A stretch of 64,000 nucleotides of DNA from Anaerolineae bacterium (GTDB lineage: Bacteria > Chloroflexota > Anaerolineae > B4-G1 > SLSP01). A program made the translations under genes and the position numbers. Numbering within the stretch: position 1 is the stretch's first letter; every line of letters starts with the position of its first letter. Of the stretch, positions 2,259-60,373 are shown one piece after another. Below the pieces are notes generated by a model. It did no database searches. It had not been told where the DNA came from and saw only the letters and a program-made list of their open reading frames with translations. The stretch is taken from the NCBI GenBank assembly GCA_034437215.1, contig DAOTVC010000039.1, positions 35,188 to 99,187 on the forward strand. Reading direction: 5' to 3'.

Positions 2259-3749
2259 ATGCGCGAAGAGAGCTTGCAGGCAGAGCAAGCCCGCCTCCTG
2301 GGCGCGCTCCGCAGACACGATGCCGTCGTGGGCCTGGGATGGGGCCTGGTAGCGGCGTTGGCCCTCGAGACGCTGCTGGTCCTCGCCGGTCGGTTGGTGC
2401 CCCTCTGGTACCGCAGCGCTCTCCTCCGGCTCCTCCCGCTCCTTCTCGGCAGCGGGCTCCTTCTCGGTGCCCTTGTCGGGGCTTATGGCAGCCGGCCCCT
2501 CAGCCGCCGCCTTCGTCGTCTGGAGCGAAATCTCGGGCTCGCCGAGCGCCTGATTACCGCTTGGGAACTGGAGCAAGGACGGATCACCGCCCCCCCTTCC
2601 ATGGTCGAAGAACAGCGCCAGGAGACCCTGGAAACTCTGCGAGGGCTGGACGCCGGGCGCACCTTTCCTCTACGACCCGCGCCGGCTGCCCTCCGCACCG
2701 TCCTGGGGCTCGTCCTGCTGCTCGGCGTAGCGCTGGGACTCCCTAACCCTCAGGAGGAGCGCCTCCTGGAACGGCAGGCGCTTCAGGAGGCCCACGAGGA
2801 AACGATCACCGAGATAGAGTCCTTGATCGCGAGTGTGGCACAAGATTCGTTTCTCGACCCCGAAACGCGCGAGGCAGCGCTGGAGGCCCTGGAAGAGGCC
2901 CTCAGCACCCTGGAGGATCCCCAGACTTCGCCCGACGAACAGATGCGGGCCCTGGACGAGGCTGAGGAGACGCTGGCGGACCTCGAAAACGCCGCAGCGG
3001 AGGCCCGCGTCCAGCAGCTCGCGGAAGCTGCCCCCCTCTCCACGGAGGAGGCAGTCCGACAGATGAGCGAGCTCCTGCAGAGGAGAGACCCTCAAGCGGC
3101 GGCGGCCTGGTTGCGGGAGCTGGTCGAGGAGCGCGGCGATCCGCTCACACCGGAGGAGATCCTGGCCCTGGCGGATGCCTTTACCGAGATGGCGCAGGCA
3201 CTTCAAGAGACAGATCCGGCACTCGCCGACCAGTTTCAGGAGATAGCGGAAGAGATCTACTCCGGTGACGCGCAGGAAGCGCGCGCAGCCATCCTGGAGG
3301 CCTCTGAAACGCTGGGAGAGGTAGCGGAGGGTAACGCGTCCAACCGTAGCCTGGAAAGCGCGCAGGCGCGCTTACAGCGCGTCGAGGAATCCCTGGGGGC
3401 TTCCGCCGGTATGCTATCAGAGGGGGAAGTCCCCAGGGGAGCAGACGCCTCCGGCAGCGGGGGCACAGCAGGCGGGGAGGATGCGGGCAGCAGTGCGCCC
3501 TATGGCCCCTCCGAGAGCGCGCGCCTCGAGGGGGAGAGCGGGCAGATCACCTTACCCCGTGAGAGAACAGCCGGGGAAGGGGAGCCGGGCGTAGGCAGCG
3601 CAGGCAGCGCCCGGGTGGACTACACGGAGGCCTACGGCGAGTATGCGGCGGCTGCAGAGGCCGAACTCTCCAGGCGCTCCCTCCCCCCGGCGATGCGGGG
3701 CTACATCCGTGCCTACTTCAGCAGCCTCGAAGAGCAGGGCTCGCAATAA
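2259..3749 (+). CDS. Hypothetical membrane-anchored protein with about three N-terminal TM helices and a long acidic Glu/Ala/Leu-rich predicted coiled-coil C-terminal domain
   Basis: 496-aa ORF starting 4 nt after the permease stop, so likely co-transcribed. Hydrophobic N-terminus, then repeated EEALxxLE-type acidic segments. Confidence 0.5.
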   Translation: MREESLQAEQARLLGALRRHDAVVGLGWGLVAALALETLLVLAGRLVPLWYRSALLRLLPLLLGSGLLLGALVGAYGSRPLSRRLRRLERNLGLAERLITAWELEQGRITAPPSMVEEQRQETLETLRGLDAGRTFPLRPAPAALRTVLGLVLLLGVALGLPNPQEERLLERQALQEAHEETITEIESLIASVAQDSFLDPETREAALEALEEALSTLEDPQTSPDEQMRALDEAEETLADLENAAAEARVQQLAEAAPLSTEEAVRQMSELLQRRDPQAAAAWLRELVEERGDPLTPEEILALADAFTEMAQALQETDPALADQFQEIAEEIYSGDAQEARAAILEASETLGEVAEGNASNRSLESAQARLQRVEESLGASAGMLSEGEVPRGADASGSGGTAGGEDAGSSAPYGPSESARLEGESGQITLPRERTAGEGEPGVGSAGSARVDYTEAYGEYAAAAEAELSRRSLPPAMRGYIRAYFSSLEEQGSQ

Positions 3750-6124: not shown

Positions 6125-6818
6125 ACGACGCGAAGCACTGAAGGCCAAGATCCTGGAGGTCCACCGGCGTCTCGGTGCCGCCTACGGTGAGCCGGAGCGC
6201 GAGGCGGAGAAGGGGGCCGTGGCCCAGCTGGTGAACACCATTCTCAGCCAGAACACCAACGACCGCAACCGCGATCTGGCCTACGATCGCCTGCGTCTAC
6301 GCTTCCCCAGCTGGGAAGCCGTGCGCGACGCGCCCCAGGAGAAGGTGATTGAAGCCATCCGCCCTGCAGGCCTGGCGCCCAGCAAGGGGCCCCGCATCCA
6401 GGAAGCCCTGCGAGAGATCACCCGCACGCAGGGCGAGATCACGCTCGACTTTCTGCGGGACCTGGGCCTTGAGGAGGCCCGGGAGTGGCTCCTCGGCATC
6501 AAGGGGGTCGGCCCCAAAACAGCCGCCATCGTGCTCCTCTTCGCCCTCGCACGGCCCGCCTTTCCGGTGGACACCCACGTGCACCGCGTGAGCCGGCGGC
6601 TGGGACTGATCCCGCAGGACACATCACGGGAGAAAGCCCACACCCTTCTGGAAGGGCTGGTTCCGGAGGCGCTCTACTATCCCTTTCACATCGAGTTGAT
6701 CCGCCACGGGCGGGAAGTCTGCACAGCCCGCAACCCGGAGCACGCCGCGTGTGGTCTACAGGATCTCTGCGACTACTATCAGGAGTTGAAGGTCGATGAA
6801 AGAGCGAACGAGAGTTAA
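6114..6818 (+). CDS. nth: Endonuclease III-like DNA glycosylase of the HhH-GPD family
   Basis: HhH-GPD signature LLGIKGVGPKTAAIVLLFAL..FPVDTHVHRV. C-terminal Cys cluster is incomplete (three Cys). Overlaps the NUDIX gene by 11 bp, so likely an operon. Confidence 0.7.
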   Translation: MARERREALKAKILEVHRRLGAAYGEPEREAEKGAVAQLVNTILSQNTNDRNRDLAYDRLRLRFPSWEAVRDAPQEKVIEAIRPAGLAPSKGPRIQEALREITRTQGEITLDFLRDLGLEEAREWLLGIKGVGPKTAAIVLLFALARPAFPVDTHVHRVSRRLGLIPQDTSREKAHTLLEGLVPEALYYPFHIELIRHGREVCTARNPEHAACGLQDLCDYYQELKVDERANES

Positions 6819-7353
6819 ATTCCCCCTGTTGATCTATCAGACCCTGAGCAAGCGCTGGTTCGTCTCTTCTGTGCTGCTCATCCCTCTGGGCCTGCTGCTC
6901 TGGTGGAGCCAGCGACAGAGTGGCCCCTACGCCTTCGCCATCCTCTTCGTCCCGCTGGCGGGCGTCCTCCTCACTATCTACACGCTGCTGGCGCGCAATG
7001 CCGCCGTCGTCTGCAGCCCCAAGCACTTCACCGTCCGTACGCCGCTCATGCCGGTGGTCTTCTCCTACCGGCGGGTGGAGAATGTACGGCCCCTCGAATT
7101 CGCCGCGGTCTTCCCTCCCCTGGAGGAAAAGGGAGTGCGGCGACGCTTCTACCAGAATCTCTGGGCCAAGACCGCCGTCGTCGTCGATCTCAAGGGCTAT
7201 CCCGTCGCCCTGTGGTGGCTGAAACTCTGGTTCAGCCCCTACCTGCTGCACCCCCAAGAGCGGGCCCTCGTCCTGCTCGTCGAGGAGTGGATGGCCCTCG
7301 TACGCCAGATCGAGATCCGGCGCGCGGCCCTCCAGGAGGGGCGACATTACTGA
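6796..7353 (+). CDS. Hypothetical membrane protein, possibly bacterial PH-domain-like
   Basis: 185-aa ORF with two N-terminal TM helices. Start overlaps the nth 3' end. No confident family. Confidence 0.35.
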   Translation: MKERTRVKFPLLIYQTLSKRWFVSSVLLIPLGLLLWWSQRQSGPYAFAILFVPLAGVLLTIYTLLARNAAVVCSPKHFTVRTPLMPVVFSYRRVENVRPLEFAAVFPPLEEKGVRRRFYQNLWAKTAVVVDLKGYPVALWWLKLWFSPYLLHPQERALVLLVEEWMALVRQIEIRRAALQEGRHY

Positions 7354-7379: not shown

Positions 7380-7710
7380 GTTGCTGAAGGGGGCACAAAC
7401 CCAAATTAAACGCATTGGATTTTGGATTCTGTAGGGCATTATCCCAAAATGATAGCGCAAACCCATAACTTATCCACTTTTCCACAGCTTTATCCACAGG
7501 CCAAACCGTAATTGTAGGGGTCACGAGGTCCCAAAGTGGCACTTACAGGGAAAAGGTAATTTGTTATTCACAGTTATTCGTGCAACCTTAAAACTTAGGT
7601 CCTTTTAACACAAAAGGGGCTCCTGGAATTGCACCCCCGGGGCTTTTTTGGTAAAATAGGGGCGTGCCAAGGGATGAAACGCCCTGCGGAACTCCACCAA
7701 GACACTTCCA
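7380..7710. other. Candidate oriC region upstream of dnaA: DnaA boxes TTATCCACT (7470-7478) and TTATCCACA (7490-7498), a degenerate box at 7439-7447, and an AT-rich stretch at 7561-7620
   Basis: Consensus DnaA boxes (TTATCCACA) seen directly. Sits immediately 5' of dnaA in a 360-bp non-coding, lower-GC region. Confidence 0.5.
7629..7657 (+). promoter_or_regulatory. Candidate dnaA promoter TTGCAC-N17-TAAAAT
   Basis: Read from the sequence, about 145 nt upstream of the likely dnaA ATG. Confidence 0.35.
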
Positions 7711-7800
7711 CAGGTGGAGGACGACACACCAATCTTTGCACGAAGTAGCATTATGGAATCGGAGGGTCCTTTTGCGCCCCTCCGCAGCAAGGGGAATTAT

Positions 7801-9144
7801 ATGAATGAGGCAAATTCGCACAAATTATGGCGCGCCACCTTGGGAGAGCTGGAGTTGCAGATGACGCGCGCCACCTTTGACACCTGGCTACGAGACACCC
7901 GTTGTCTGGGTTTGGAAAACGGAGAGACCCTGGTCATCGGTGTCAAGAACGGGTACGCGGTCGAGTGGCTGGAGAACCGCCTTCAACCCATCGTACAGCG
8001 CACCCTGCAGCACATTGCCGGAAAAAGTCTAGAAACACGCTTTGTGGTGTGGGAGGGTAATCGCACCCCGCCCCCGCCACCGCTTCTTCAGGGGGAGAGC
8101 ATGGATGTCGTCACCACTCCGGTTCCCGATCCAGGTCTGAATGAAGAGTATACCTTCCAGGACTACGTCGTGGGGCCGGGCAACCGGTTGGCGCAGGCGG
8201 CCTCCCAGGCCGTCGCCGAGGCACCGGCCCGCGCTTACAACCCCCTCTTCCTCTACGGCGGTGTGGGGTTGGGTAAGACCCATCTCCTCCACGCCATCGG
8301 TCAGATCTCCTACAGGCAGGGTCTGCAAGTCCTCTACATCTCCTCCGAGCAGTTTACCAACGACCTGGTCGAGGCCATCCGCACCCACACCACCGATGCC
8401 TTTCGGGATAAGTACCGCAACGCTGAAGTCCTCCTCGTCGATGACATTCAATTTATCGCCGGCAAAGAGAGCACCCAGGAGGAGTTCTTCCACACCTTCA
8501 ACGCCCTCCGCGATACCGGACACCAGATCGTTCTCAGCAGTGACCGCCCGCCCAAGGCTATGATCACCCTTGAGGAGCGCCTGCGGTCGCGCTTCGAGTG
8601 GGGCCTGATCGTCGACATCCAACCCCCGAATTTCGAGACCCGGTTGGCCATCCTGCGCAAGAAGGCCCATCGGCGCGGCGTGAAGATCTCGGACAGTGTG
8701 CTGGAGTTCATCGCCAGCAACGTCGAGAGCAACATCCGCGAGCTCGAGGGCGCTCTCAACCAGCTCCTGGCGCTCTCACGCCTCACGGGCTTGCCGCTAA
8801 ACCTGGAGACTGCTCAGCAGGCCCTCACCGACCTGCTCCCCAGCCGCCCCACCCTGACGGCCGAGGAGATCATCGAGATGGTCTCTACCTACTACAACCT
8901 CACCGTGGACGAGCTGCGGAGCCCTCGTCGCAGCCGCAGGATCGCCTTTCCCCGCCAGATTGCCATGTACCTGATCCGGGAGGAGACCGATTCCTCCCTG
9001 CCCCAAATCGGAGCGCAGCTGGGCGGCAGAGATCATACGACCATTCTCTACGGCTACGAGCGCATCCGCACCACCCTGGAAGAGGACCCCCAACTGCGAC
9101 GCGAGATCCTGACGCTCAAGTCACGCCTCTACGAACGCAACTAA
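7801..9144 (+). CDS. dnaA: Chromosomal replication initiator protein DnaA
   Basis: AAA+ Walker A GVGLGKTHLL and C-terminal DnaA-box binding domain (RRIAFPRQIAMYL). The ORF track starts at 7714, but the conserved N-terminus begins at MNEANSHKLW (ATG 7801). Confidence 0.9.
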   Translation: MNEANSHKLWRATLGELELQMTRATFDTWLRDTRCLGLENGETLVIGVKNGYAVEWLENRLQPIVQRTLQHIAGKSLETRFVVWEGNRTPPPPPLLQGESMDVVTTPVPDPGLNEEYTFQDYVVGPGNRLAQAASQAVAEAPARAYNPLFLYGGVGLGKTHLLHAIGQISYRQGLQVLYISSEQFTNDLVEAIRTHTTDAFRDKYRNAEVLLVDDIQFIAGKESTQEEFFHTFNALRDTGHQIVLSSDRPPKAMITLEERLRSRFEWGLIVDIQPPNFETRLAILRKKAHRRGVKISDSVLEFIASNVESNIRELEGALNQLLALSRLTGLPLNLETAQQALTDLLPSRPTLTAEEIIEMVSTYYNLTVDELRSPRRSRRIAFPRQIAMYLIREETDSSLPQIGAQLGGRDHTTILYGYERIRTTLEEDPQLRREILTLKSRLYERN

Positions 9145-10871: not shown

Positions 10872-10900
10872 TTGAAGTTATATCCCCTTGTCTGTATAAT
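10872..10900 (+). promoter_or_regulatory. Promoter candidate TTGAAG-N17-TATAAT upstream of the response-regulator gene
   Basis: Read from the sequence. Confidence 0.4.
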
Positions 10901-10951
10901 CAGAGAAGAGAGAAAAAACCGTCCCTCACTATCTAGCGACGAGGAGATGAT

Positions 10952-12088
10952 ATGGCAAGACGCATCTTGATCGCCGATGATGACCTGGAAGCCCTGCGCC
11001 TCATCGGCCTGATGCTGGAGCGCAAGGGGTACGAAATCGTCGCAGCCGCCTCGGGTGAGCAGGCGCTGAAGAAGATCGAGGAGCAGCTGCCCGATCTCAT
11101 CATCCTCGACGTGATGATGCCCGGCGTAGATGGTTACGAGGTGGCTCGACACTTACGGGAGAATCCCAGAACCGCTCCGATCCCCATCCTCTTCTTCACG
11201 GCCAAGAGCTCCATTACCGACAAGATCGCGGGCTTTCAGGCCGGCGGCGACGACTATCTGACGAAGCCCATCCATCCGGCGGAGCTGCTCTCGCGGGTCG
11301 AGGTTCTCCTGCAGCGCAGCGCTCGCCAGACAGTTCCTGAGACGGCCCGGGCCAAGGTCTTTGCCCTACTCCCCGTCAAGGGCGGGGTCGGTAACAGCAC
11401 GCTGGCCCTCAACATGGCCCTACAAATGGCTCAAGTGAAGGAGAAGCGCACGATCCTGGTGGAGTTGGTGGATGGCGGAGGCTCCAGCGCCTCACAACTC
11501 GGCGCCTCCGCCACTCGAGGTCTGCAGTCCCTGGTGGAGAAAGGGCCGCTGGCGCTCAGTTCTGCTGCGGTGGATGCCCAGGCCCTCAAGCACGAGACCG
11601 GGCTGCGCGTTCTGCCTGCCAGCCCGCGACCTGCCGGTCTGGTCCCCGCCATCACTGAGGAGTTCGTCCAGGCCCTGCTGCGCATTCTCCTGACGGAGTA
11701 CGACCACGTGCTCTTTGACCTCTCCCCTACGCTCAACAAGGCCACCACTGAGGTGCTGCACCAGGCTCAGTACGTCATCCTCACCTTCGAACCCACAAAG
11801 ATCGCGCTAGCCCTCGCCCATACCTTCCTGGAGAGCCTGGAGGAGCGGAACATCGGCGCCTACAAGGTCCGCCCTGTCTTCATCCACCGCGCCCCGGCTG
11901 CCGACGCCATCACCCGAGACTCCGTTAAGGCGGAGATCGGTCAGGAGCTCTTAGCCAGCATCCCTCCTGTACCCGACGCCGCTTACGAAAGTTGGTCTGC
12001 GGGACAGCCCATGCTGCTCACGCAACCGCAGAATCTCTTCTCGCAGCAGGTGCGCTTTATCGTTGATCGGCTTTTGGAATCCTCTTAA
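10952..12088 (+). CDS. Response regulator: canonical REC domain fused to a ParA/MinD-like domain with a degenerate Walker A (KGGVGNST in place of KGGxGK[ST])
   Basis: REC residues present (DDD, D in LIILDVMMP, T, K). The C-terminal region has the ParA/MinD fold signature but lacks the P-loop Lys. Confidence 0.7.
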   Translation: MARRILIADDDLEALRLIGLMLERKGYEIVAAASGEQALKKIEEQLPDLIILDVMMPGVDGYEVARHLRENPRTAPIPILFFTAKSSITDKIAGFQAGGDDYLTKPIHPAELLSRVEVLLQRSARQTVPETARAKVFALLPVKGGVGNSTLALNMALQMAQVKEKRTILVELVDGGGSSASQLGASATRGLQSLVEKGPLALSSAAVDAQALKHETGLRVLPASPRPAGLVPAITEEFVQALLRILLTEYDHVLFDLSPTLNKATTEVLHQAQYVILTFEPTKIALALAHTFLESLEERNIGAYKVRPVFIHRAPAADAITRDSVKAEIGQELLASIPPVPDAAYESWSAGQPMLLTQPQNLFSQQVRFIVDRLLESS

Positions 12089-12108
12089 AGAGACTGTTCA
12101 CTGAGCAA

Positions 12109-13350
12109 ATGAAACGTTCGACTCCCGTGTCACCCTTAGATACCTTCCAGAACAGACCTCGAGAGCAGGAACAGGAGCTGCTCGAACAACGGGTCGCCCG
12201 GTTGGAGCAGCTCCTGGCCGTTGGTCGGCGCCTGAACTCTACCCTGGAGATACCGGCGCTCCTGCTGCAGGTCGTCAGCGCGGCGCGAGAGATCACAGGC
12301 GCGGACGCGGCCTCTATCCTGCTCGTGGAGAACGACAAGACGTTGCGTTTTGCTGCCTCCTGCGGCCCCGACGACACCCTCCTCAAAACGACCGAGGTGC
12401 CCATCGACAAAAGCCTCGCGGGATGGGTGGTGCGCAATGCCGAGACCGCCATCGTGGAGGATGCCACCTCCGACCTGCGCGTCTACGTCATCGACGAGGC
12501 CCTGACCACCCGCTCCATCGTGGCGGTTCCGATGCTCTTCGGCGAGCAGGTCATCGGAGTGCTGGAAAGCCTGACCCACCACGAACAGCACCGCTTCAGC
12601 CCTCACGACGTTGAGGCCCTGGAGACCCTGGCCGGTATCGCTGCCGTGGCCGTGCAGAACGCACGCCTCTTCCAACAGAGTGACTGGATCGCTGAGATCG
12701 TTCACGAGATCCGCACCCCCCTCACCTCCATCATGACCTATGCCGACCTTCTCGCCACCCGTCAGTTACAGCCTCACTCGCGCCAGAAGTTCGTGGAGAT
12801 CATCAACCATGAGGCCAACCGGGTCAACGGTCTCATCAACCAATTCCTGGATCTGGCCCGGCTGGAGTCAGGCCGGGTCATCATGAAGCGCACGCCCTTC
12901 TCCCTGGCAGAGGTCATCCGGCTCTCCCGGGATCTCATCCGCCCCCAGGCCGACGAACGGCAGATGTCCCTGGAGGTGGTCGTCCCTCCGGACCTACCCG
13001 AGGTTCTGGGGGACGCCGAACGCATCCAGCAGGTGCTGCTCAACTTTCTCTCCAATGCCGTGAAGTATGCCAATCCAGGCGATCGCATCTCGGTAGCTTG
13101 CGAGGTGGGGGCGGAGGAGCTCATCGTGACGGTCACCGATACGGGGCCCGGCATCGCCAAAGAGCACCAGCAGGGTCTCTTTGAGAAGTTCTCGCGCGTT
13201 CCCGGCAGCGAGGAGCGCGCCGAAGGCTCGGGACTGGGCTTGAACATCGCACGTCAGATCATCCTGGCCCACCAAGGCCGCGTCTGGCTGGAGAGCGAGG
13301 CAGGAGAAGGGAGCACCTTCGCCTTTTCCCTCCCCCTGACCACCGAGTGA
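12109..13350 (+). CDS. GAF-domain sensor histidine kinase
   Basis: GAF region; HisKA H-box EIVHEIRTPLTSI; HATPase_c G-boxes (GSGLGLNIARQI). Confidence 0.8.
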   Translation: MKRSTPVSPLDTFQNRPREQEQELLEQRVARLEQLLAVGRRLNSTLEIPALLLQVVSAAREITGADAASILLVENDKTLRFAASCGPDDTLLKTTEVPIDKSLAGWVVRNAETAIVEDATSDLRVYVIDEALTTRSIVAVPMLFGEQVIGVLESLTHHEQHRFSPHDVEALETLAGIAAVAVQNARLFQQSDWIAEIVHEIRTPLTSIMTYADLLATRQLQPHSRQKFVEIINHEANRVNGLINQFLDLARLESGRVIMKRTPFSLAEVIRLSRDLIRPQADERQMSLEVVVPPDLPEVLGDAERIQQVLLNFLSNAVKYANPGDRISVACEVGAEELIVTVTDTGPGIAKEHQQGLFEKFSRVPGSEERAEGSGLGLNIARQIILAHQGRVWLESEAGEGSTFAFSLPLTTE

Positions 13351-13388
13351 TACTTTACAAACCCACAAAATATGGTATCATTTCTCCG

Positions 13389-13430
13389 CCCTGTGAGTGT
13401 CGTAGGCACTCTCGGGTTTTTTGTGTTTTT
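13389..13430 (+). terminator. Intrinsic terminator (imperfect hairpin plus TTTTTTGTGTTTTT) after the histidine-kinase gene
   Basis: Seen in the sequence. Confidence 0.5.
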
Positions 13431-17322: not shown

Positions 17323-18450
17323 CTACGGGAGATAGATCAGGGGATTGGTCGGGTAGCCGTTGTAGCGAATCTCGAAGTGCAGATGGGGACCCGTGGAGTA
17401 GCCGGTGCTGCCCATCGCACCGATCACCTGCCCCATCTCCACGACTTCACCCTCGTAGACGAAGATATTGCTGAGGTGCGCGTAGTAGGTCTGGAAGCCG
17501 TTGGTGTGATCCACGACAACCAGATAGCCATACCCTACGTCCGTCCAGCCGGCGAAGACCACGTAACCGGCGTCGGCAGCCACGATGGCAACTCCGGTAG
17601 CATTGGCTACGTCGACAGCACGGTGCCCGTACCAGTAGCCCTGACTGAGGTATCCACCGGCCGGCCAAGAGAAGTTAGCCCCACCGACAGCGCCTTCAGG
17701 CGCCGGACCTTCATAGAGGACGACCTCTCGCTTCTCGTAGGGCTTCGTCCCGCCGGGTATGATCACCTTCGTACCCGGCATCAGATCCCCCCCGTCGGTC
17801 AAGGTGTTGAAGGGGCAGTTCCGAATCTCTGCAGCGGAGGCACTGTACTTCTCAGCCAGGCTCCGCACCGTGTCCTCCTCGGTGACGGCGTGGTAGACCC
17901 CATCCAGCGGTAGGATGACCAGCTCCTGCCCCACCTTGAGAAGATCGGGGGCCTTTTCCATCGCCGGGTTCGACCACATGATGGTCGTCGGCTCCAGCCC
18001 AAAGGCTTCCGCGATCGATTGGGTGGTGTCCCCCGGTTGTATGGTGTAGGTGACGATCTCCAGACGGGGGCGTGGGGGAATGTAGGTGTGCGGCTCTGCC
18101 GCGCGGGCAATCCTGCCCAAGGCGCTGGCTCGATAGTAAGGACGCATCGAACCGGCGAGGGGCTGGGTCTGTTTCTCTGTAACGATCAACGGCTCCAGGG
18201 AGAGGGAGTTGACGGCACCCGAGGCCATACCGATGGGCGCGTCCAACTGCAGACCCCAAAAGGCCAGGAAGGCGGCCAAAATCAGGAGCAGGGCGGCGTG
18301 GGAGCCAAACCTACCCAGGTAGGGGCGTTGACCCCGGTGGTCACCGTTCCAGCGCCAGACGAGAGCCGCAAAAGCAGCAATGGCGTGGGTGATTGCTCGC
18401 CCACGCCACTCGAGGTACTCTTTGGGGCTCTTCACATTAGAGCTGCCCAT
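17323..18450 (-). CDS. Membrane-anchored LysM-domain M23 family metallopeptidase
   Basis: N-terminal TM, LysM repeats (YTIQPGDTTQSIAEAFG..; HAVTEEDTVRSLAEKY..), and M23 motifs HRAVD..GYGYLVVVDH..HLHFEIR. Confidence 0.8.
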   Translation of the reverse strand: MGSSNVKSPKEYLEWRGRAITHAIAAFAALVWRWNGDHRGQRPYLGRFGSHAALLLILAAFLAFWGLQLDAPIGMASGAVNSLSLEPLIVTEKQTQPLAGSMRPYYRASALGRIARAAEPHTYIPPRPRLEIVTYTIQPGDTTQSIAEAFGLEPTTIMWSNPAMEKAPDLLKVGQELVILPLDGVYHAVTEEDTVRSLAEKYSASAAEIRNCPFNTLTDGGDLMPGTKVIIPGGTKPYEKREVVLYEGPAPEGAVGGANFSWPAGGYLSQGYWYGHRAVDVANATGVAIVAADAGYVVFAGWTDVGYGYLVVVDHTNGFQTYYAHLSNIFVYEGEVVEMGQVIGAMGSTGYSTGPHLHFEIRYNGYPTNPLIYLP

Positions 18451-19631
18451 TACCAGAAAAGTTGGGGGTTTTGAGGCACACCGCCGTAACGGATCTCAAA
18501 GTGCAGATGCGGGCCCGTGGACCAACCCGTGGTCCCGCAAGCACCCAGCACGGATCCCTGGGGCACGAGGTCGCCGGCGGTGACCCAGATGGAGTCGAAG
18601 TGGGCGTAACGGCTCGTGTAGCCGTTGCCGTGATCGACGATCACGAGATTCCCATACCCTCCGCTCCAACCCGTGAAGGTCACAATCCCGTTATCCGCCG
18701 CGTAGATGGCGTCCCCCAGGCTGCAGCGGTAGTCCAGGCCGATGTGACGCGGGTTGCGCGGGTCGTGGAAGGTCCAGCCGGAGATGGCGTAGGAGCCCGT
18801 GGGGAGCCCCCACCAGCCATCCGCTCCCGTCATGGCTGCGGTGACGCTGCCGCTGAAGCTGCTGCTGCGAGCCATAGGCAGGACAGGATCGGGCGGGGGC
18901 GCTTCCCACTGGATGGTCTCCCCCACACCGCCGGGCACCACGAGCAGCTGGCCCTCACTCAGGGTCTGGCCTCGATCGATCCCGTTCCACATGTTGTAGA
19001 GGGCCACGGGCTCCACCTCGTACTGCTCGGCGATACTGCGCACACTCTCCCCCGCGGCGACGGTGTGATAGGCGCCGTCGATGGGCGGGATCGCCAAGAC
19101 GAGTCCGGGGTTGATGAGCCAGGGCGCGCCCTGGAGAGGCTCCATGTTGGACCAGACGATGGTCTCCGGAGAGAGATCGAACTTCCAGGCGATATCGTAG
19201 ATGGTATCGCCCATCTGCACCGTGTAGGTGATGACCTCGAGACGCACACGATCGGGGATGGTGGTATGGGGTATGACCTGACGCGAAATCGCCCGCTGGG
19301 CAGGGGACTGCCACGAGCGGACGGCGCCGACGGTCATCAACGTAGGCGTAGCCATAGGTTCTGCAGCAACCTGGGAAGAGGGCGCTGAATCCTCCGCCAC
19401 ACTGATCTGCGTCCATGTAATACGGCCCACAAAGACCAGGAGCAGGACCAGAAAGATGATCCCCAGGTGTGCACTGTACCGCCCTAGCAGAGATGCGACG
19501 GCCTGACGATCACTGCTCAACCGCCAGGCCCACGCTATCGTTTTCGCTAGAACACGCCCAAAGGCGCGGGACAGCGCCCGCGGCGAACCTTGGAACGATG
19601 TTGCTTCAAAAGTCTCTTCGTTCGTATTCAT
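18450..19631 (-). CDS. Membrane-anchored LysM-domain M23 family metallopeptidase; tandem paralog of the previous gene
   Basis: Same architecture (TM, two LysM, M23 with HIGLD..GYGNLVIVDH..HLHFEIR). Confidence 0.8.
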   Translation of the reverse strand: MNTNEETFEATSFQGSPRALSRAFGRVLAKTIAWAWRLSSDRQAVASLLGRYSAHLGIIFLVLLLVFVGRITWTQISVAEDSAPSSQVAAEPMATPTLMTVGAVRSWQSPAQRAISRQVIPHTTIPDRVRLEVITYTVQMGDTIYDIAWKFDLSPETIVWSNMEPLQGAPWLINPGLVLAIPPIDGAYHTVAAGESVRSIAEQYEVEPVALYNMWNGIDRGQTLSEGQLLVVPGGVGETIQWEAPPPDPVLPMARSSSFSGSVTAAMTGADGWWGLPTGSYAISGWTFHDPRNPRHIGLDYRCSLGDAIYAADNGIVTFTGWSGGYGNLVIVDHGNGYTSRYAHFDSIWVTAGDLVPQGSVLGACGTTGWSTGPHLHFEIRYGGVPQNPQLFW

Positions 19632-56861: not shown

Positions 56862-57959
56862 CTACTGGCTGGACCCCAGATAGGTGTCCCAGCCGGTGTC
56901 GATCTCGCCGTCGATGATGCTCTGGCGAATGTTCTCCACCTCGCCCATCACCTCCTCGGCGACCACACCCTCAGTGACGGGGGCGATGCCCACGCCGTCG
57001 TTCTCCAGCGTGCCGATGTAGGGCGCCTGCCCCTCGAAGTTCTCGAAGTCGGGCTCCAACATCAGGGCGATGGTATCGTAGACGGCGTTGTCCATCCACT
57101 TCACCACGCTGGTCAGGACGATGTCGGCGTACTCGGGAGCGCTGAAGGTCCAGTCGGTGTCCACACCGATGATCCAGGCGTCGCCCTGCTCCTGCACGGC
57201 CTGCGCGGAGCCCAGCCCCACGGGACCGGCGACGGGCATGATGACGTCGGCGCCCTCGGACAGGAACTCCTCGGCCACCCGGCGCCCATCGGAGGTGGAC
57301 TCGAAGTTGCCGACGAAGACGCCGTCCGCCTCTGCGGTGCTCCACCCTAACAGCTCCACGTCGGCGTCGTGCTGCTCGTTGTAGTACTCGACGCCCGACT
57401 GGAAGCCGACCATGAAGATGGTCACGGTGGGGATCTTGATCCCGCCGTAGGTGGCGACGATGCCGGTCTGGGTCGCGGCTGCGGCCAGGTATCCGGCCAG
57501 GAAGCCGGCCTCGTCGGTGGCAAAGCTCAGACCCCGGACGTTCAGGTATTGACCGCCGTAGTCGTAGTCGACGATGGCAAACATCGTCTCGGGGTTCTGC
57601 TGGGCAAACTCCTCGGTGGCGTCAGCGAGCAGGAAGCCGACGGTGACGATCAGATCGGTCTCCTGCCGGAGCAGCTGGTTGATGTTCGTAGCATAGTCGG
57701 TCTGCTGCTGGGACTCCAGCACCGTGCCCTCGACGTTCAGCTCCTCCCTGGCGCGTTCAACGCCCCGCCAGGAAGTCTGGTTGAAGGAGCGGTCGTCCAC
57801 GCCGCCGATGTCGGTGACCATGCCGACGAGGAGAGTCGGCTCCTCCGGCGTCTCCTCGGTGGGCGCCTCCGTCGGAGTCGCTTCGTCTCCCCCACAGGCG
57901 GTCAGCAGCATGCTGACCACGACGAACAGACTCAGTAACATCCACAAACTCTTACGCAT
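56862..57959 (-). CDS. BMP-family (PnrA-like) ABC substrate-binding lipoprotein
   Basis: Lipobox LLTAC; BMP-family sequence. ATG at 57959 has an AGGAGGG RBS; the track ORF is extended to 58022. Confidence 0.8.
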   Translation of the reverse strand: MRKSLWMLLSLFVVVSMLLTACGGDEATPTEAPTEETPEEPTLLVGMVTDIGGVDDRSFNQTSWRGVERAREELNVEGTVLESQQQTDYATNINQLLRQETDLIVTVGFLLADATEEFAQQNPETMFAIVDYDYGGQYLNVRGLSFATDEAGFLAGYLAAAATQTGIVATYGGIKIPTVTIFMVGFQSGVEYYNEQHDADVELLGWSTAEADGVFVGNFESTSDGRRVAEEFLSEGADVIMPVAGPVGLGSAQAVQEQGDAWIIGVDTDWTFSAPEYADIVLTSVVKWMDNAVYDTIALMLEPDFENFEGQAPYIGTLENDGVGIAPVTEGVVAEEVMGEVENIRQSIIDGEIDTGWDTYLGSSQ

Positions 57960-58261
57960 TGGTATCCCTCCTGCTAAAGTTAACAATCGTACCGACCGCC
58001 AGATTCTCCTCTGCTTTCGCACACCTCCTTAGATTAGGAACTGGGACTTGTTGGTCAGTGGGCCCGGAGGATCCGCAGGTACCAAGTGGGACGCGGTCCC
58101 TGGGCGCCTCTACCTTCAATTATACTCCAGCCGCTTGAGGGTCGCAATTGGCGCCCCCAGGTGGGGGCGCTTCAGGGACAACAACAGACGAGGACGGAAG
58201 GTGGGCACAAGTAAGGAGGGGGTGGATCACCACCCCCTCCTTGAATGGGTACGAGAAGTGC

Positions 58262-60373
58262 TTACTCGCTCAGGCCGGCCAGGTAGGCGCTCCAACCGGT
58301 TTCAATGTCCCCGGCGATGATGCCCTGCTTGACCTGCTCGATCTCGTCCAGCACCTCGGCAGAGACGGCGCCGCTGGCGACGGGGGCGATGCCCACACCG
58401 CTGTTCTGCAGCGTGCCCAGGTAGGTCTCCCCACCGAAGCTCGAGAAGTTCTCGCGGGCCACCTTCTTAATAGTGTCGAAGACTGCCACGTTCATGTTCT
58501 TGAGGACGCTGGTGAGGATGATCTCCTCGTACTCACCCGCGCTCACCGCCCAGTCGGTGTCCACGCCGATGATCCAGGCGTCACCCGCCTCTTTCACCGC
58601 CTGCGCGGAGCCCAGCCCCACGGGACCGGCGACGGGCATGATGACGTCGGCGCCCTCGGCCAGGAACTCCTCGGCCACCCGGCGCCCGTCGTCCGTCGAC
58701 TCGAAGTTGCCGACGAAGACGCCGTTGTTCTCGGCGGTGTTCCAGCCCAGAACCTCGACGTCGGCGTCGTACTGCTCGTTGTAGTAGGCCACACCGGCCT
58801 CAAAACCCACCATGAAGATGGTCACGGGCGGGATATTGATGCCCCCGAAGGTAGCCACCCGGCCCGTCTGCGTGGCCGCCGCCGCCGCGTAGCCGGCGAG
58901 GAAGCCCGCCTGATCGGTGGCAAAGGTCAGCCCGCGCACGTTCTCGATGGGGGGATCGTAGGCGAAATCGACGATGGCGAAGTTGGTATCGGGGTTGTCC
59001 TGCGCGAACTGTGCCGTGTCGTCGGCCAGCAGGAAGCCCACGGTCACGATGAGATCGGTATCCTGCTGCAGGTACTGGGTGAGGTTGGTGGCGTAGTCCG
59101 TCTGCTGCTGGGACTCCAGGTAGGAGCCCTCGACGTTCAGCTCGGTTATGGCCCGGACGATGCCCTGCCAGGCCGTCGCGTTGAAGGACTTGTCGTCGAT
59201 GCCGCCGATGTCGGTCACCATCCCGACGGAGATCTCGCGGTACTCGGGCTCCGCGGGGGCCACCCCCAGGGACTCGAGGTAGGCGCCCCAACCCGTTGCC
59301 AGCTCACCGGCGATAATCTGCCCCTTGATCTGCTCCAGCTCCTGGCGCAGATCAGCGTCGATGGTGCCCTCAGCAACCGCGGCGATACCCACGCCGTTGT
59401 TCTCCAGCGTGCCCAGGTAGGGCTCCCCGCCGAAGTCGGTGAAGCCGGGGGCGGCCACCCTCTCGATGGTGTCGAAGACCGCCACGTCCATGTTCTTGAG
59501 GACGCTGGTGAAGATGACGTCCTCGTACTCGGGCGCGCTCACCGCCCAGTCGGTGTCCACGCCGATGATCCAGGCGTCACCCGCCTCTTTCACCGCCTGC
59601 GCGGAGCCCAGCCCCACGGGACCGGCGACGGGCATGATGATGTCGGCGCCCTCGGCCAGGAACTCCTCGGCCACCCGACGCCCGTCGTCCGTCGACTCGA
59701 AGTTGCCGACGAAGACCCCGTTGTTCTCGGCGGTGTTCCAGCCCAGAACCTCGACGTCGGCGTCGTGCTGCTCATTGTAGTAGGCCACACCGGCCTCAAA
59801 ACCCACCATGAAGATGGTCACGGGCGGGATATTGATGCCCCCGAAGGTAGCCACCTTGCCCGTCTGCGTGGCCGCTGCCGCCGCGTAGCCGGCGAGGAAA
59901 CCCGCCTCGTCGGTGGCGAAGGTCAGCCCGCGCACGTTGGGGTAAGCGCCGCCGTAGGAGTAGTCGACGATGGCGAAGTTGACATCGGGGTTGGATTCCG
60001 CGAACTGCGCCGTGTCGTCGGCCAGCAGGAAGCCCACGGTCACGATGAGGTTGGCGTCCTGCTGCACGTACTGGGTGATGTTGGTGGCATAGTCCGTCTG
60101 CTGCTGGGACTCCAGGTAGGAGCCCTCGACGTTCAGCTCCTCGATGGCGCGCTCGATGCCCTGCCAGGCCGTCGCGTTGAAGGATTTGTCGTCGATACCG
60201 CCGATGTCGGTCACCATGCCGACGAGGAGAGTCGGCTCCTCCGGCGTCTCCTCGGTGGGCTCCTCCGTTACCGGCGGCTCCGTCGGTTCGGGCACCGGCG
60301 TGGGCCGGCAGGCACCCAGCAACATCGAGACGACGAGCACCAGGCTCAACAGTAACCAAAACTTCTTCTGCAT
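58262..60373 (-). CDS. Fused tandem-duplicated BMP-family substrate-binding lipoprotein (two complete BMP domains, 703 aa)
   Basis: Lipobox LLGAC. The two halves are about 90% identical to each other and to the downstream single substrate-binding protein. Confidence 0.8.
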   Translation of the reverse strand: MQKKFWLLLSLVLVVSMLLGACRPTPVPEPTEPPVTEEPTEETPEEPTLLVGMVTDIGGIDDKSFNATAWQGIERAIEELNVEGSYLESQQQTDYATNITQYVQQDANLIVTVGFLLADDTAQFAESNPDVNFAIVDYSYGGAYPNVRGLTFATDEAGFLAGYAAAAATQTGKVATFGGINIPPVTIFMVGFEAGVAYYNEQHDADVEVLGWNTAENNGVFVGNFESTDDGRRVAEEFLAEGADIIMPVAGPVGLGSAQAVKEAGDAWIIGVDTDWAVSAPEYEDVIFTSVLKNMDVAVFDTIERVAAPGFTDFGGEPYLGTLENNGVGIAAVAEGTIDADLRQELEQIKGQIIAGELATGWGAYLESLGVAPAEPEYREISVGMVTDIGGIDDKSFNATAWQGIVRAITELNVEGSYLESQQQTDYATNLTQYLQQDTDLIVTVGFLLADDTAQFAQDNPDTNFAIVDFAYDPPIENVRGLTFATDQAGFLAGYAAAAATQTGRVATFGGINIPPVTIFMVGFEAGVAYYNEQYDADVEVLGWNTAENNGVFVGNFESTDDGRRVAEEFLAEGADVIMPVAGPVGLGSAQAVKEAGDAWIIGVDTDWAVSAGEYEEIILTSVLKNMNVAVFDTIKKVARENFSSFGGETYLGTLQNSGVGIAPVASGAVSAEVLDEIEQVKQGIIAGDIETGWSAYLAGLSE

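What the first reader, a model, noticed from the sequence alone, without database searches (positions are those of the whole stretch)
10952..13350. Response regulator fused to a ParA/MinD-like domain with an inactivated P-loop, paired with a GAF histidine kinase
The REC domain has all phosphorylation residues. The C-terminal ParA/MinD fold has KGGVGNST instead of the deviant Walker A KGGxGK[ST], so it has lost the catalytic Lys and is probably a pseudo-ATPase. Output would then be protein-protein interaction or localisation rather than DNA binding. The architecture resembles CpaE/TadZ-type proteins but here it is coupled to a cytoplasmic GAF sensor kinase, and there is no pilus locus nearby. 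This could be a phosphorylation-controlled positioning or scaffold switch.
Basis: partly seen in the sequence, partly recalled or inferred. Interest (0 to 1): 0.55.

Follow-up and report, generated by a model that had tools for sequence, protein, structure and literature searches.

The report
Phospho-switched TadZ-like regulator with GAF kinase
This is a two-gene signalling module of an Anaerolineales (Chloroflexota) bacterium: a cytoplasmic GAF sensor kinase and a response regulator whose output is a TadZ/CpaE-type, lysine-less ParA/MinD-like domain rather than a DNA-binding domain. It belongs to a very large, annotated but uncharacterised Chloroflexota family that was not found next to pilus genes in any locus examined.

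Summary
ORF 10952-12088 encodes a canonical receiver (D9, D10, D53, T83, K105) fused to a ParA/MinD-fold domain (Pfam AAA_31) with Walker A KGGVGNST. ORF 12109-13350 encodes a soluble GAF-HisKA-HATPase kinase.

The missing P-loop lysine is neither an artefact nor a strain defect. None of 120 orthologues (45-79% identity) has GK[ST]. The motif fits the published TadZ consensus K/RGGxGx[S/T]. The best structural matches are 3ea0 and 3fkq (E. rectale TadZ).

The architecture is common. About 580 clusters at 50% identity match the C-domain at E<=1e-10, and nearly all of the best 150 combine a DDD[TS]K receiver with a lysine-less Walker A. The named ones are all Chloroflexota.

Pairing with the GAF kinase holds in 13 of the 15 loci held as DNA, often with a Sir2 gene between. 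No tad/cpa gene occurs in any of them, nor among the called genes of one further locus. More distant control relatives do sit next to cpaF-tadB-tadC.

Best reading: phosphorylation of D53 drives receiver dimerisation. This switches the hydrolysis-poor TadZ-like domain into a partner-binding scaffold. The target is unknown. It is a new variant of a known kind and of moderate interest.

The parts
10872..10900 (+). Sigma-70-like promoter candidate (TTGAAG-17-TATAAT) in the 123-nt gap upstream of the regulator gene. A GAGGAG ribosome-binding site lies at 10941-10946.
   Evidence: Consensus scan and sequence. This is a consensus match only.
10952..12088 (+). Response regulator gene (378 aa): receiver domain fused to a TadZ/CpaE-like ParA/MinD-fold domain.
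   Evidence: The AlphaFold2 model has pLDDT 91.4. An identical protein occurs in an NCBI Anaerolineales MAG.
10964..11299 (+). Receiver (REC) domain, residues 5-116. The phospho-acceptor D53 is the codon at 11108-11110. D9, D10, T83, Y102 and K105 are present. K91, D100, D101, E111, R115 and R122 on the alpha4-beta5-alpha5 face are conserved.
   Evidence: Pfam E 2.9e-31. Conservation in 58 orthologues. 44-47% identity and target-normalised TM 0.92-0.97 to OmpR/PhoB-family receiver-only structures.
11354..12079 (+). TadZ/CpaE-like ParA/MinD-fold domain, residues 135-376.
   Evidence: AAA_31 E 1.2e-13. phmmer to 3ea0 E 8e-12. Foldseek 3ea0 TMt 0.88 and 3fkq E 2.8e-13. The best NCBIfam model is TIGR03815 CpaE_hom_Actino/Ssd at 58 bits, below its cut-off of 154.
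11378..11401 (+). Atypical Walker A, K143-GGVG-N148-ST. The signature Lys is kept and the P-loop Lys is replaced by Asn.
   Evidence: Sequence. In 58 orthologues K143, G144, G145 and G147 are invariant and position 148 is T (34) or N (24), never K. It matches the TadZ consensus K/RGGxGx[S/T].
11462..11464 (+). E171 codon. This is a Glu at the first switch-I acidic position (Asp in canonical ParA/MinD). The second, catalytic Asp position (residue 173) is not conserved.
   Evidence: E in 57 of 58 orthologues. Residue 173 varies (R, Q, H, T, K, V). Canonical relatives show LVDxD/N.
11717..11719 (+). D256 codon, the Walker B aspartate. It is invariant.
12109..13350 (+). Soluble sensor histidine kinase gene (413 aa). 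GAF is at residues 47-184 (12247-12660), HisKA at 190-255 (12676-12873) with H199 at 12703-12705, and HATPase_c at 301-411 (13009-13341).
   Evidence: Pfam. Motif positions and hydropathy. A kinase orthologue is adjacent in 13 of the 15 loci held as DNA.
13395..13421 (+). Terminator-like hairpin plus T-run after the kinase gene. A promoter-like site for greA lies at 13354-13381.
   Evidence: Consensus match only.

Best explanation
The two genes form a bicistronic two-component system of an Anaerolineales bacterium.

The soluble kinase senses a cytoplasmic ligand or state through its GAF domain. It autophosphorylates on H199 and transfers the phosphoryl group to D53 of the regulator.

The regulator has no DNA-binding output. 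Its output is a TadZ/CpaE-type ParA/MinD-fold domain. This domain keeps the signature Lys, the glycines, the Ser/Thr and the Walker B Asp. It lacks the P-loop Lys and the catalytic switch-I Asp. It probably still binds nucleotide but cannot run an ATP-hydrolysis cycle.

I infer that the on/off switch has moved from ATP turnover to the receiver. Phosphorylation would drive OmpR/PhoB-like alpha4-beta5-alpha5 dimerisation of the receiver. That would bring two TadZ-like domains together or release them, and so create or remove a binding surface for a partner protein. The partner could be an envelope or division machine, or possibly the Tad pilus ATPase encoded elsewhere.

Shown: gene structure, domains, motifs, fold, family-wide conservation, conserved kinase pairing, and absence of tad genes at the locus.

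Inferred: phosphotransfer, nucleotide binding without hydrolysis, dimerisation switching, and scaffold output. The target is unknown.
For: - Domains and motifs.
- Receiver catalytic residues and the residues at positions 91, 100, 101, 111, 115 and 122 are conserved in 58 orthologues.
- The receiver is closest to PhoB, RpaB, VicR and MicA receivers.
- The C-domain is closest in sequence and structure to 3ea0 and to TadZ 3fkq, ahead of FlhG, MinD and Soj.
- The motif equals the published TadZ consensus.
- The lysine-less state holds in 120 of 120 orthologues, in nearly all of the best 150 representatives at 50% clustering, and in all 119 newly returned members of the broader family.
- The GAF kinase is adjacent or within three genes in 13 of the 15 loci held as DNA, down to 33% regulator identity.
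- The 20-nt spacing, the upstream promoter-like site and the downstream terminator-like site fit an operon.
- No CpaF, TadB, TadC or RcpC homologue occurs in the window or in 14 related loci. The same approach finds tad loci around more distant relatives L089, L090, L097 and L100.
Against: - There is no experimental or co-evolutionary evidence for any partner.
- AlphaFold2 gave a monomer only, with pTM 0.68, so the orientation between the domains is uncertain.
- ATP binding by a domain that lacks the P-loop Lys rests on analogy with E. rectale TadZ. That comes from my own knowledge, because the paper was not readable here.
- One orthologue (L004) has lost the kinase, and L009 has a different kinase beside it. 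The pairing is therefore not obligatory.
- A role in Tad pili encoded elsewhere cannot be excluded, because only 64 kb of the genome was available.
Confidence: 0.55

Rival explanations
1. It is this organism's working TadZ/CpaE, encoded away from the tad genes. It recruits or positions the Tad (Flp) pilus machinery, and the GAF kinase gates pilus assembly.
For: - The Walker A and the fold are TadZ-type.
- JGI names several family members 'pilus assembly protein CpaE'.
- Anaerolineales express a Tad pilus cluster (PMC4877987).
- Receiver-bearing CpaE proteins do exist inside tad loci (L090).
Against: - The Anaerolineales tad cluster is reported to carry its own cpaE (pilA-cpaB-cpaE-cpaF-tadB-tadC).
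- None of the 15 loci held as DNA has a tad gene within 8-10 kb, nor do the called genes of the P0302 locus. More distant relatives in L089, L090, L097 and L100 are directly next to cpaF.
- The tad-locus receiver-type example (L090) keeps a canonical GKT, unlike this family.
Confidence: 0.17
2. It is a MinD/ParA/Ssd-like positioning ATPase for septation or chromosome segregation in the filamentous cell. It is placed near oriC and dnaA and modulated by phosphorylation.
For: - The gene lies 3.4 kb from a DnaA-box cluster and from dnaA.
- The dnaA-lctP-RR-HK-greA-lysS synteny is conserved in seven loci.
- The best NCBIfam model is the Ssd 'septum site-determining' CpaE homologue.
- Neighbours in the broader family include ftsK, mutL and LysM/M23 cell-wall enzymes.
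Against: - The P-loop Lys and the catalytic switch-I Asp that ParA/MinD patterning cycles need are absent across the whole family.
- No parB, minC or minE partner gene is nearby.
- Linkage to dnaA is limited to one subgroup and is absent in L004, L006-L009 and L086-L088.
- The TIGR03815 score is far below its cut-off (58 against 154 bits).
Confidence: 0.15
3. The C-terminal domain is a decaying, functionless remnant, or the Asn is a sequencing or strain-specific variant. The protein would then act only as a phosphate sink or single-domain regulator.
For: Loss of the canonical P-loop Lys, taken in isolation.
Against: - The domain is conserved over its full length in thousands of proteins, with invariant K143, G144, G145, G147, N154 and D256.
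- The model is confident (pLDDT 91).
- The same motif occurs in 120 of 120 orthologues.
Confidence: 0.02

Closest known systems
TadZ / CpaE pilus-localisation proteins (E. rectale TadZ, PDB 3fkq; Aggregatibacter TadZ; Caulobacter CpaE)
   Same: - Two-domain layout: an N-terminal receiver-fold domain plus a C-terminal ParA/MinD-fold domain.
- Atypical Walker A K/RGGxGx[S/T] without the P-loop Lys.
- 3fkq aligns over both domains in Foldseek (E 2.8e-13).
   Different: - TadZ has an atypical receiver without phospho-acceptor residues (example P0387 with HFEAD). This protein has a fully canonical receiver and an adjacent kinase.
- TadZ and CpaE are encoded next to cpaF/tadA inside tad loci (L089). 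This family was not (0 of 15 loci held as DNA).
- Sequence identity to 3fkq is only 14%.
Chlorobium tepidum 'ParA family ATPase', PDB 3ea0
   Same: - It is the best sequence and structure match to the C-domain: phmmer E 8e-12, Foldseek TMt 0.88, 23-24% identity.
- It also lacks the P-loop Lys (KGGDGGS).
   Different: - The solved chain is a single domain with no receiver.
- Its function is uncharacterised and its genomic context was not checked here.
Receiver-type CpaE inside monoderm-type tad loci (example P0256, locus L090)
   Same: Canonical receiver (DDDSK) fused to an AAA_31/ParA domain of about 400 aa.
   Different: - P0256 keeps a canonical KGGVGKTT P-loop and LVDLN switch I.
- It sits between rcpC/cpaB and cpaF-tadB-tadC.
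- Its C-domain is only 28% identical to this one.
Actinobacterial Ssd / CpaE homologue (NCBIfam TIGR03815)
   Same: It is the best NCBIfam model for the C-domain (E 7.7e-16).
   Different: The score of 58 bits is far below the family cut-off of 154, so this protein is not a member.
MinD, Soj/ParA, FlhG/FleN
   Same: Same fold (Foldseek TMt 0.71-0.81). The signature Lys and the Walker B Asp are kept.
   Different: - No GK[ST] Lys and no catalytic switch-I Asp.
- A receiver is fused at the N-terminus.
- There are no MinC/MinE, ParB or flagellar partners nearby.

Membership tests
Two-component response regulator (REC, PF00072) | Receiver fold with the acidic pocket (DD), phospho-acceptor Asp, Thr/Ser and Lys | tested here: met
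   Pfam E 2.9e-31. D9, D10, D53, T83 and K105 are present and are invariant or nearly invariant in 58 orthologues.
Two-component response regulator (REC, PF00072) | A cognate histidine kinase is encoded alongside | tested here: met
   A GAF-HisKA-HATPase kinase lies 20 nt downstream. The pairing is conserved in 13 of the 15 loci held as DNA.
Two-component response regulator (REC, PF00072) | Actual phosphotransfer to the Asp | not testable with these tools
   Needs biochemistry.
ParA/MinD (deviant Walker A) ATPases | ParA/MinD alpha/beta fold | tested here: met
   AAA_31 scores above its cut-off. Foldseek TMt 0.71-0.88 to 3ea0, MinD, Soj and FlhG.
ParA/MinD (deviant Walker A) ATPases | Deviant Walker A xKGGxGK[ST] with both lysines | tested here: not met
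   The motif is KGGVGNST. Only the signature Lys is kept, and position 148 is N or T in all orthologues.
ParA/MinD (deviant Walker A) ATPases | Switch I with two acidic residues (DxD), including the catalytic Asp | tested here: not met
   The sequence is LVELVDG. E171 is conserved, and the second position (173) is variable.
ParA/MinD (deviant Walker A) ATPases | Walker B Asp | tested here: met
   D256 is invariant.
TadZ/CpaE | Atypical Walker A-like motif K/RGGxGx[S/T] | tested here: met
   KGGVGNS matches the consensus quoted in bioRxiv 10.64898/2026.07.08.737194.
TadZ/CpaE | The N-terminal domain is an atypical receiver (ARD) that lacks phosphorylation residues | tested here: not met
   The receiver here is canonical. 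The tad-locus CpaE P0387 has HFEAD at the five key positions.
TadZ/CpaE | Encoded within a tad/cpa locus next to the CpaF/TadA ATPase | tested here: not met
   No T2SSE, T2SSF, Flp, TadE or RcpC gene occurs in the 64-kb window or in 14 related loci. Positive controls are L089, L090, L097 and L100.
TadZ/CpaE | Structural similarity to the solved TadZ | tested here: met
   3fkq aligns over both domains at E 2.8e-13. The domain orientation differs (rmsd 13.8).
TadZ/CpaE | Polar localisation and requirement for pilus biogenesis | not testable with these tools
   Needs cell biology.
Ssd / CpaE_hom_Actino (TIGR03815) | Score above the curated cut-off | tested here: not met
   58.1 bits against a cut-off of 154.45.
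HisKA-type sensor histidine kinase | H-box His, the N, G1 and G2 boxes, and a sensor domain | tested here: met
   H199, N at 316, DTGPGI at 344 and GSGLGL at 373. GAF, HisKA and HATPase_c all score above their Pfam cut-offs.

The most novel reading that the evidence does not exclude
This Chloroflexota-wide family may be a ParA/MinD-type positioning or scaffold module in which the ATP-hydrolysis timer has been replaced by a phosphorylation switch. A cytoplasmic GAF kinase would operate that switch. In many members an operon-encoded Sir2 deacetylase would add lysine deacetylation. The module would link metabolic state directly to the placement or assembly of a cell-envelope or division machine in filamentous Anaerolineae, independently of Tad pili.
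Probability: 0.2. Interest if true: 0.65.

Novelty: new variant of a known kind. Interest (0 to 1): 0.4.

Why it matters
Response regulators with a non-DNA-binding ParA/MinD-type output are listed in censuses but are almost unstudied. The characterised TadZ/CpaE proteins have dead receivers and no kinase.

This family offers the opposite case. It has a live receiver, a dedicated soluble kinase and a hydrolysis-crippled ParA-like domain. It is conserved in thousands of Chloroflexota sequences and sits in housekeeping neighbourhoods.

If the switch model is right, it would show how a ParA/MinD scaffold can be driven by phosphorylation instead of ATP turnover. It would also give an entry point into the poorly known cell biology of filamentous Anaerolineae, which are abundant in digesters and activated sludge.

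If it merely tunes Tad pili, it is a modest addition to pilus regulation.

Tried and rejected
It gave only four full-length relatives (L006-L009) and did not recover the source genome. The rest of the genome could therefore not be searched for a tad cluster or a paralogue.
- The exact protein P0001 is not in the contig index.
- The C-domain alignment A3 was too divergent for a metagenome scan.
- The AFDB Foldseek library was unavailable.
- The TadZ structure paper (Xu et al. 2012, PMC3272108) is not held. Statements about ATP binding and low ATPase activity of TadZ therefore rest on my own knowledge.
- Five literature searches for a characterised phosphorylatable receiver-CpaE/ParA regulator found nothing relevant, and a sixth returned no paper. 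One more query was rejected for syntax.
- Rejected: sequencing or strain artefact, because of the conservation.
- Rejected: membership of Ssd/TIGR03815, because the score is far below the cut-off.
- Rejected: a canonical MinD/ParA cycle, because the catalytic residues are missing.
- Not resolved: whether the greA-linked subgroup (no Sir2) and the Sir2-containing subgroup (33-43% identity) are orthologues in different lineages or paralogues in the same genome.
Full report
**1. Observation**

The window holds two co-directional ORFs exactly where the finding places them. ORF 10952-12088 is 378 aa and ORF 12109-13350 is 413 aa, and they are 20 nt apart. Both have the high GC3 and low GC2 typical of real genes in this 62% G+C sequence.

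Pfam finds Response_reg (residues 5-116, E 2.9e-31) and AAA_31 (135-297, E 1.2e-13) in the first protein. ParA/NUBPL and CbiA hit it below their thresholds. The second protein has GAF_2, HisKA and HATPase_c, all above threshold.

The receiver carries D9, D10, D53, T83, Y102 and K105. The Walker A reads K143-GGVG-N148-ST. The kinase has H199 and the N, G1 and G2 boxes, and no segment hydrophobic enough for a membrane helix.

A promoter-like site (10872-10900) and a GAGGAG ribosome-binding site precede the regulator gene. A terminator-like hairpin (13395-13411) follows the kinase gene. This fits a bicistronic operon, although these are consensus matches only.

**2. Surroundings**

The rest of the window is housekeeping:
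- glnA, a NUDIX gene, endonuclease III, dnaA (7714-9144) and a lactate permease lie upstream.
- greA, lysS, an HD protein and two LysM-M23 peptidases lie downstream.
- Further on come the ribosomal-protein, secY and rpoA cluster, EF-Tu, EF-G, rpoB, rsmF, a Bmp-type ABC transporter, a ClpB/ClpC-like ATPase and RNase III.

Four DnaA-box-like sites cluster at 7470-7572, just upstream of dnaA. No tad/cpa gene is present, either by Pfam or by tblastn with CpaF, TadB, TadC and RcpC seeds. No second copy of either gene occurs in the window. A near-identical protein is named 'MAG: response regulator [Anaerolineales bacterium]' at NCBI.

**3. Is the lysine-less P-loop real and conserved?**

Yes. The 120 best database homologues are 45-79% identical and full length. 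Those that carry a name come from Anaerolineae or Thermoflexia MAGs. All have [NTA] at the P-loop Lys position and none has GK[ST].

In an alignment of 58 of them, K143, G144, G145, G147, N154 and D256 are invariant. Position 148 is T (34) or N (24). E171 replaces the first switch-I Asp, and the second, catalytic position is not conserved.

The receiver residues D9, D10, D53, T83, Y102 and K105 are invariant or nearly so. The residues K/R91, D100, D101, E111, R115 and R122 are also conserved. From my own knowledge, these form the alpha4-beta5-alpha5 dimer salt bridges of OmpR/PhoB-family receivers. The receiver aligns without gaps to the PhoB model, positions 1-133.

**4. What kind of ParA/MinD domain is it?**

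By sequence the C-domain is closest to PDB 3ea0, a Chlorobium 'ParA family ATPase' that is itself KGGDGGS (E 8e-12). Soj, ParA, FlhG and MinD follow.

The AlphaFold2 model is confident (pLDDT 91.4), with only the linker at 128-131 disordered. Foldseek against the PDB ranks 3ea0 first (TMt 0.88). E. rectale TadZ 3fkq comes next and aligns over both domains. FlhG, FleN, MinD and Soj score TMt 0.71-0.81.

The best NCBIfam model is the actinobacterial CpaE homologue Ssd (TIGR03815). At 58 bits against a cut-off of 154, the protein is not a member.

**5. How common is the architecture?**

An exhaustive phmmer search of the C-domain against 1.84 billion cluster representatives found these numbers:

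| E-value threshold | Proteins |
|---|---|
| <= 1e-3 | 4893 |
| <= 1e-10 | 581 |
| <= 1e-30 | 11 |

Among the best 150, almost every full-length protein combines a DDD[TS]K receiver with KGGxG[TNVA][ST][ST]. Only a handful have GK[ST] or GR, or a non-canonical N-terminal domain.

A profile of 50 of the more distant members retrieved more than 7500 proteins. All named ones are from Chloroflexota (Anaerolineae, Aggregatilinea). They are annotated 'response regulator', 'CpaE' or 'OmpR family', and all are lysine-less. The fusion is therefore abundant and already annotated, but I found no paper that characterises it.

**6. Genomic context across the family**

Close orthologues (41-51% identity in the C-domain or the whole protein) in L001, L005 and L091-L094 keep the order lctP - regulator - GAF kinase - greA. 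Where the DNA reaches far enough (L001, L005, L091-L093) they also keep dnaA upstream and lysS and the HD gene downstream. L004 keeps regulator-greA-lysS but has lost the kinase and the dnaA linkage.

More distant members (33-43% identity) show these arrangements:
- regulator - Sir2 - GAF kinase (L006, L007, L086, L087);
- regulator - endonuclease V - Sir2 - GAF kinase (L088);
- regulator - GAF kinase (L008).

Their neighbours include mutL, secDF, ftsK and tilS, and L086 and L087 have a second, divergent PAS or GAF kinase upstream.

L009 has a MASE3 kinase beside it instead. The P0302 locus was listed without DNA. It shows only endonuclease V next to the regulator and a distant hybrid kinase.

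In total, the GAF kinase is adjacent or within three genes in 13 of the 15 loci held as DNA. tblastn with tad seeds finds no tad gene in any of them, and none is among the called genes of the P0302 locus.

**7. Controls**

The same context approach readily finds tad loci around more distant relatives.
- Desulfarculus baarsii CpaE (P0387) has the N-terminal residues HFEAD and the motif KGGVGVSH. It lies in flp-A24-tadE-rcpC-secretin-tadG-cpaE-cpaF-tadB-tadC.
- P0256 has a canonical receiver (DDDSK) and a canonical KGGVGKTT. It lies in tadE-...-rcpC-cpaE-cpaF-tadB-tadC.
- L097 and L100 are next to cpaF-tadB-tadC.

Xia et al. 2016 report that Anaerolineales carry a conserved pilA-cpaB-cpaE-cpaF-tadB-tadC cluster, which means a cpaE of its own (PMC4877987). 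The protein studied here is therefore most likely a separate, orphan branch of the TadZ/CpaE clade and not the pilus-locus TadZ.

**8. Mechanism**

These points are shown:
- a canonical, phosphorylatable receiver;
- a dedicated soluble GAF kinase;
- a ParA/MinD fold that keeps the signature Lys, the Ser/Thr and the Walker B Asp;
- loss of the P-loop Lys and of the catalytic switch-I Asp.

The rest is inferred. Like TadZ, the domain probably binds nucleotide but barely hydrolyses it. This rests on my own knowledge of Xu et al. 2012. It cannot then use ATP turnover as a timer. Receiver phosphorylation would instead drive OmpR/PhoB-like dimerisation, control pairing of the TadZ-like domains, and so control binding of an unknown partner.

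The conserved Sir2 gene in many operons suggests a second input through lysine deacetylation. From my own knowledge, E. coli CobB acts on CheY and RcsB in this way. This is speculation.

**9. Rivals**

| Rival | Confidence | Main argument against |
|---|---|---|
| Remote TadZ for Tad pili | 0.17 | No linkage to tad genes, and the tad cluster has its own cpaE |
| MinD/ParA/Ssd-like division or segregation factor near oriC | 0.15 | Missing catalytic residues, no partner genes, and dnaA linkage in one subgroup only |
| Decayed domain or artefact | 0.02 | Refuted by conservation |

**10. Verdict**

However, the 'inactivated P-loop' is the TadZ/CpaE signature, and the architecture is widespread in Chloroflexota and already annotated.

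Three things are distinctive. The receiver is live, the GAF kinase pairing is conserved, and the family is consistently separate from tad loci.

I rate it a new variant of a known kind, with interest 0.4.

Noticed in passing
L006:3334-4110, L007:11155-11934, L086:11200-12024, L087:11170-11937, L088:12080-12835: In the more distant members of the family, a Sir2-family NAD-dependent deacetylase gene sits between the regulator and the GAF kinase, often with overlapping stop and start codons. It is absent from the window's subgroup. This suggests lysine (de)acetylation as a second input into the system.
   Followed up: partly
L088:11170-11874 and the P0302 locus: An endonuclease V gene directly follows the regulator in two family loci. 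No explanation.
   Followed up: no
window 7470-7572: Four DnaA-box-like 9-mers (one exact TTATCCACA and three with one mismatch) lie within about 100 nt just upstream of dnaA. The whole window has 11 matches, against 4.7 expected. This is probably oriC or the dnaA autoregulatory region, about 3.4 kb from the regulator gene.
   Followed up: partly
window 7714-9144: The longest dnaA ORF (476 aa, GTG start) is about 27-29 aa longer than the called orthologues (447-449 aa in L001 and L005). The true start is probably the internal Met before 'NEANSHKLW'.
   Followed up: no
L004:11152-11599: One orthologue (45% identity) has lost the GAF kinase. Only a 447-nt gap separates the regulator from greA, and the upstream dnaA-lctP block is replaced by unrelated genes.
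   Followed up: partly
L090:8001-9233: A CpaE with a canonical receiver (DDDSK) and a canonical KGGVGKTT P-loop sits inside a secretin-less tad locus (tadE-rcpC-cpaE-cpaF-tadB-tadC), next to a DegS/HisKA_3 kinase and a GerE-type regulator. Phosphorylatable CpaE proteins therefore do exist in tad loci.
   Followed up: partly
window 17323-19631 (-): Two tandem paralogous LysM-Peptidase_M23 genes (375 and 393 aa, about 38% identical to each other) are conserved in the same position in L001 and L004. L005 has only one.
   Followed up: no
window 56862-60373 (-): A 703-aa protein with two matched stretches to the Bmp/PnrA substrate-binding model lies next to a single-domain Bmp protein and an ABC transporter (two permeases and a double ATPase).
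   Followed up: no
window 2259-3749 (+) and 6796-7353 (+): Two ORFs (496 and 185 aa) have no Pfam match but are conserved in synteny in L001 (47% and 49% identity).
   Followed up: no
PDB 3t6k: The best solved match to the receiver domain is Caur_3799 from Chloroflexus aurantiacus (E 5e-33, 136-aa chain). I did not check whether it is the receiver of a related fusion protein.
   Followed up: no
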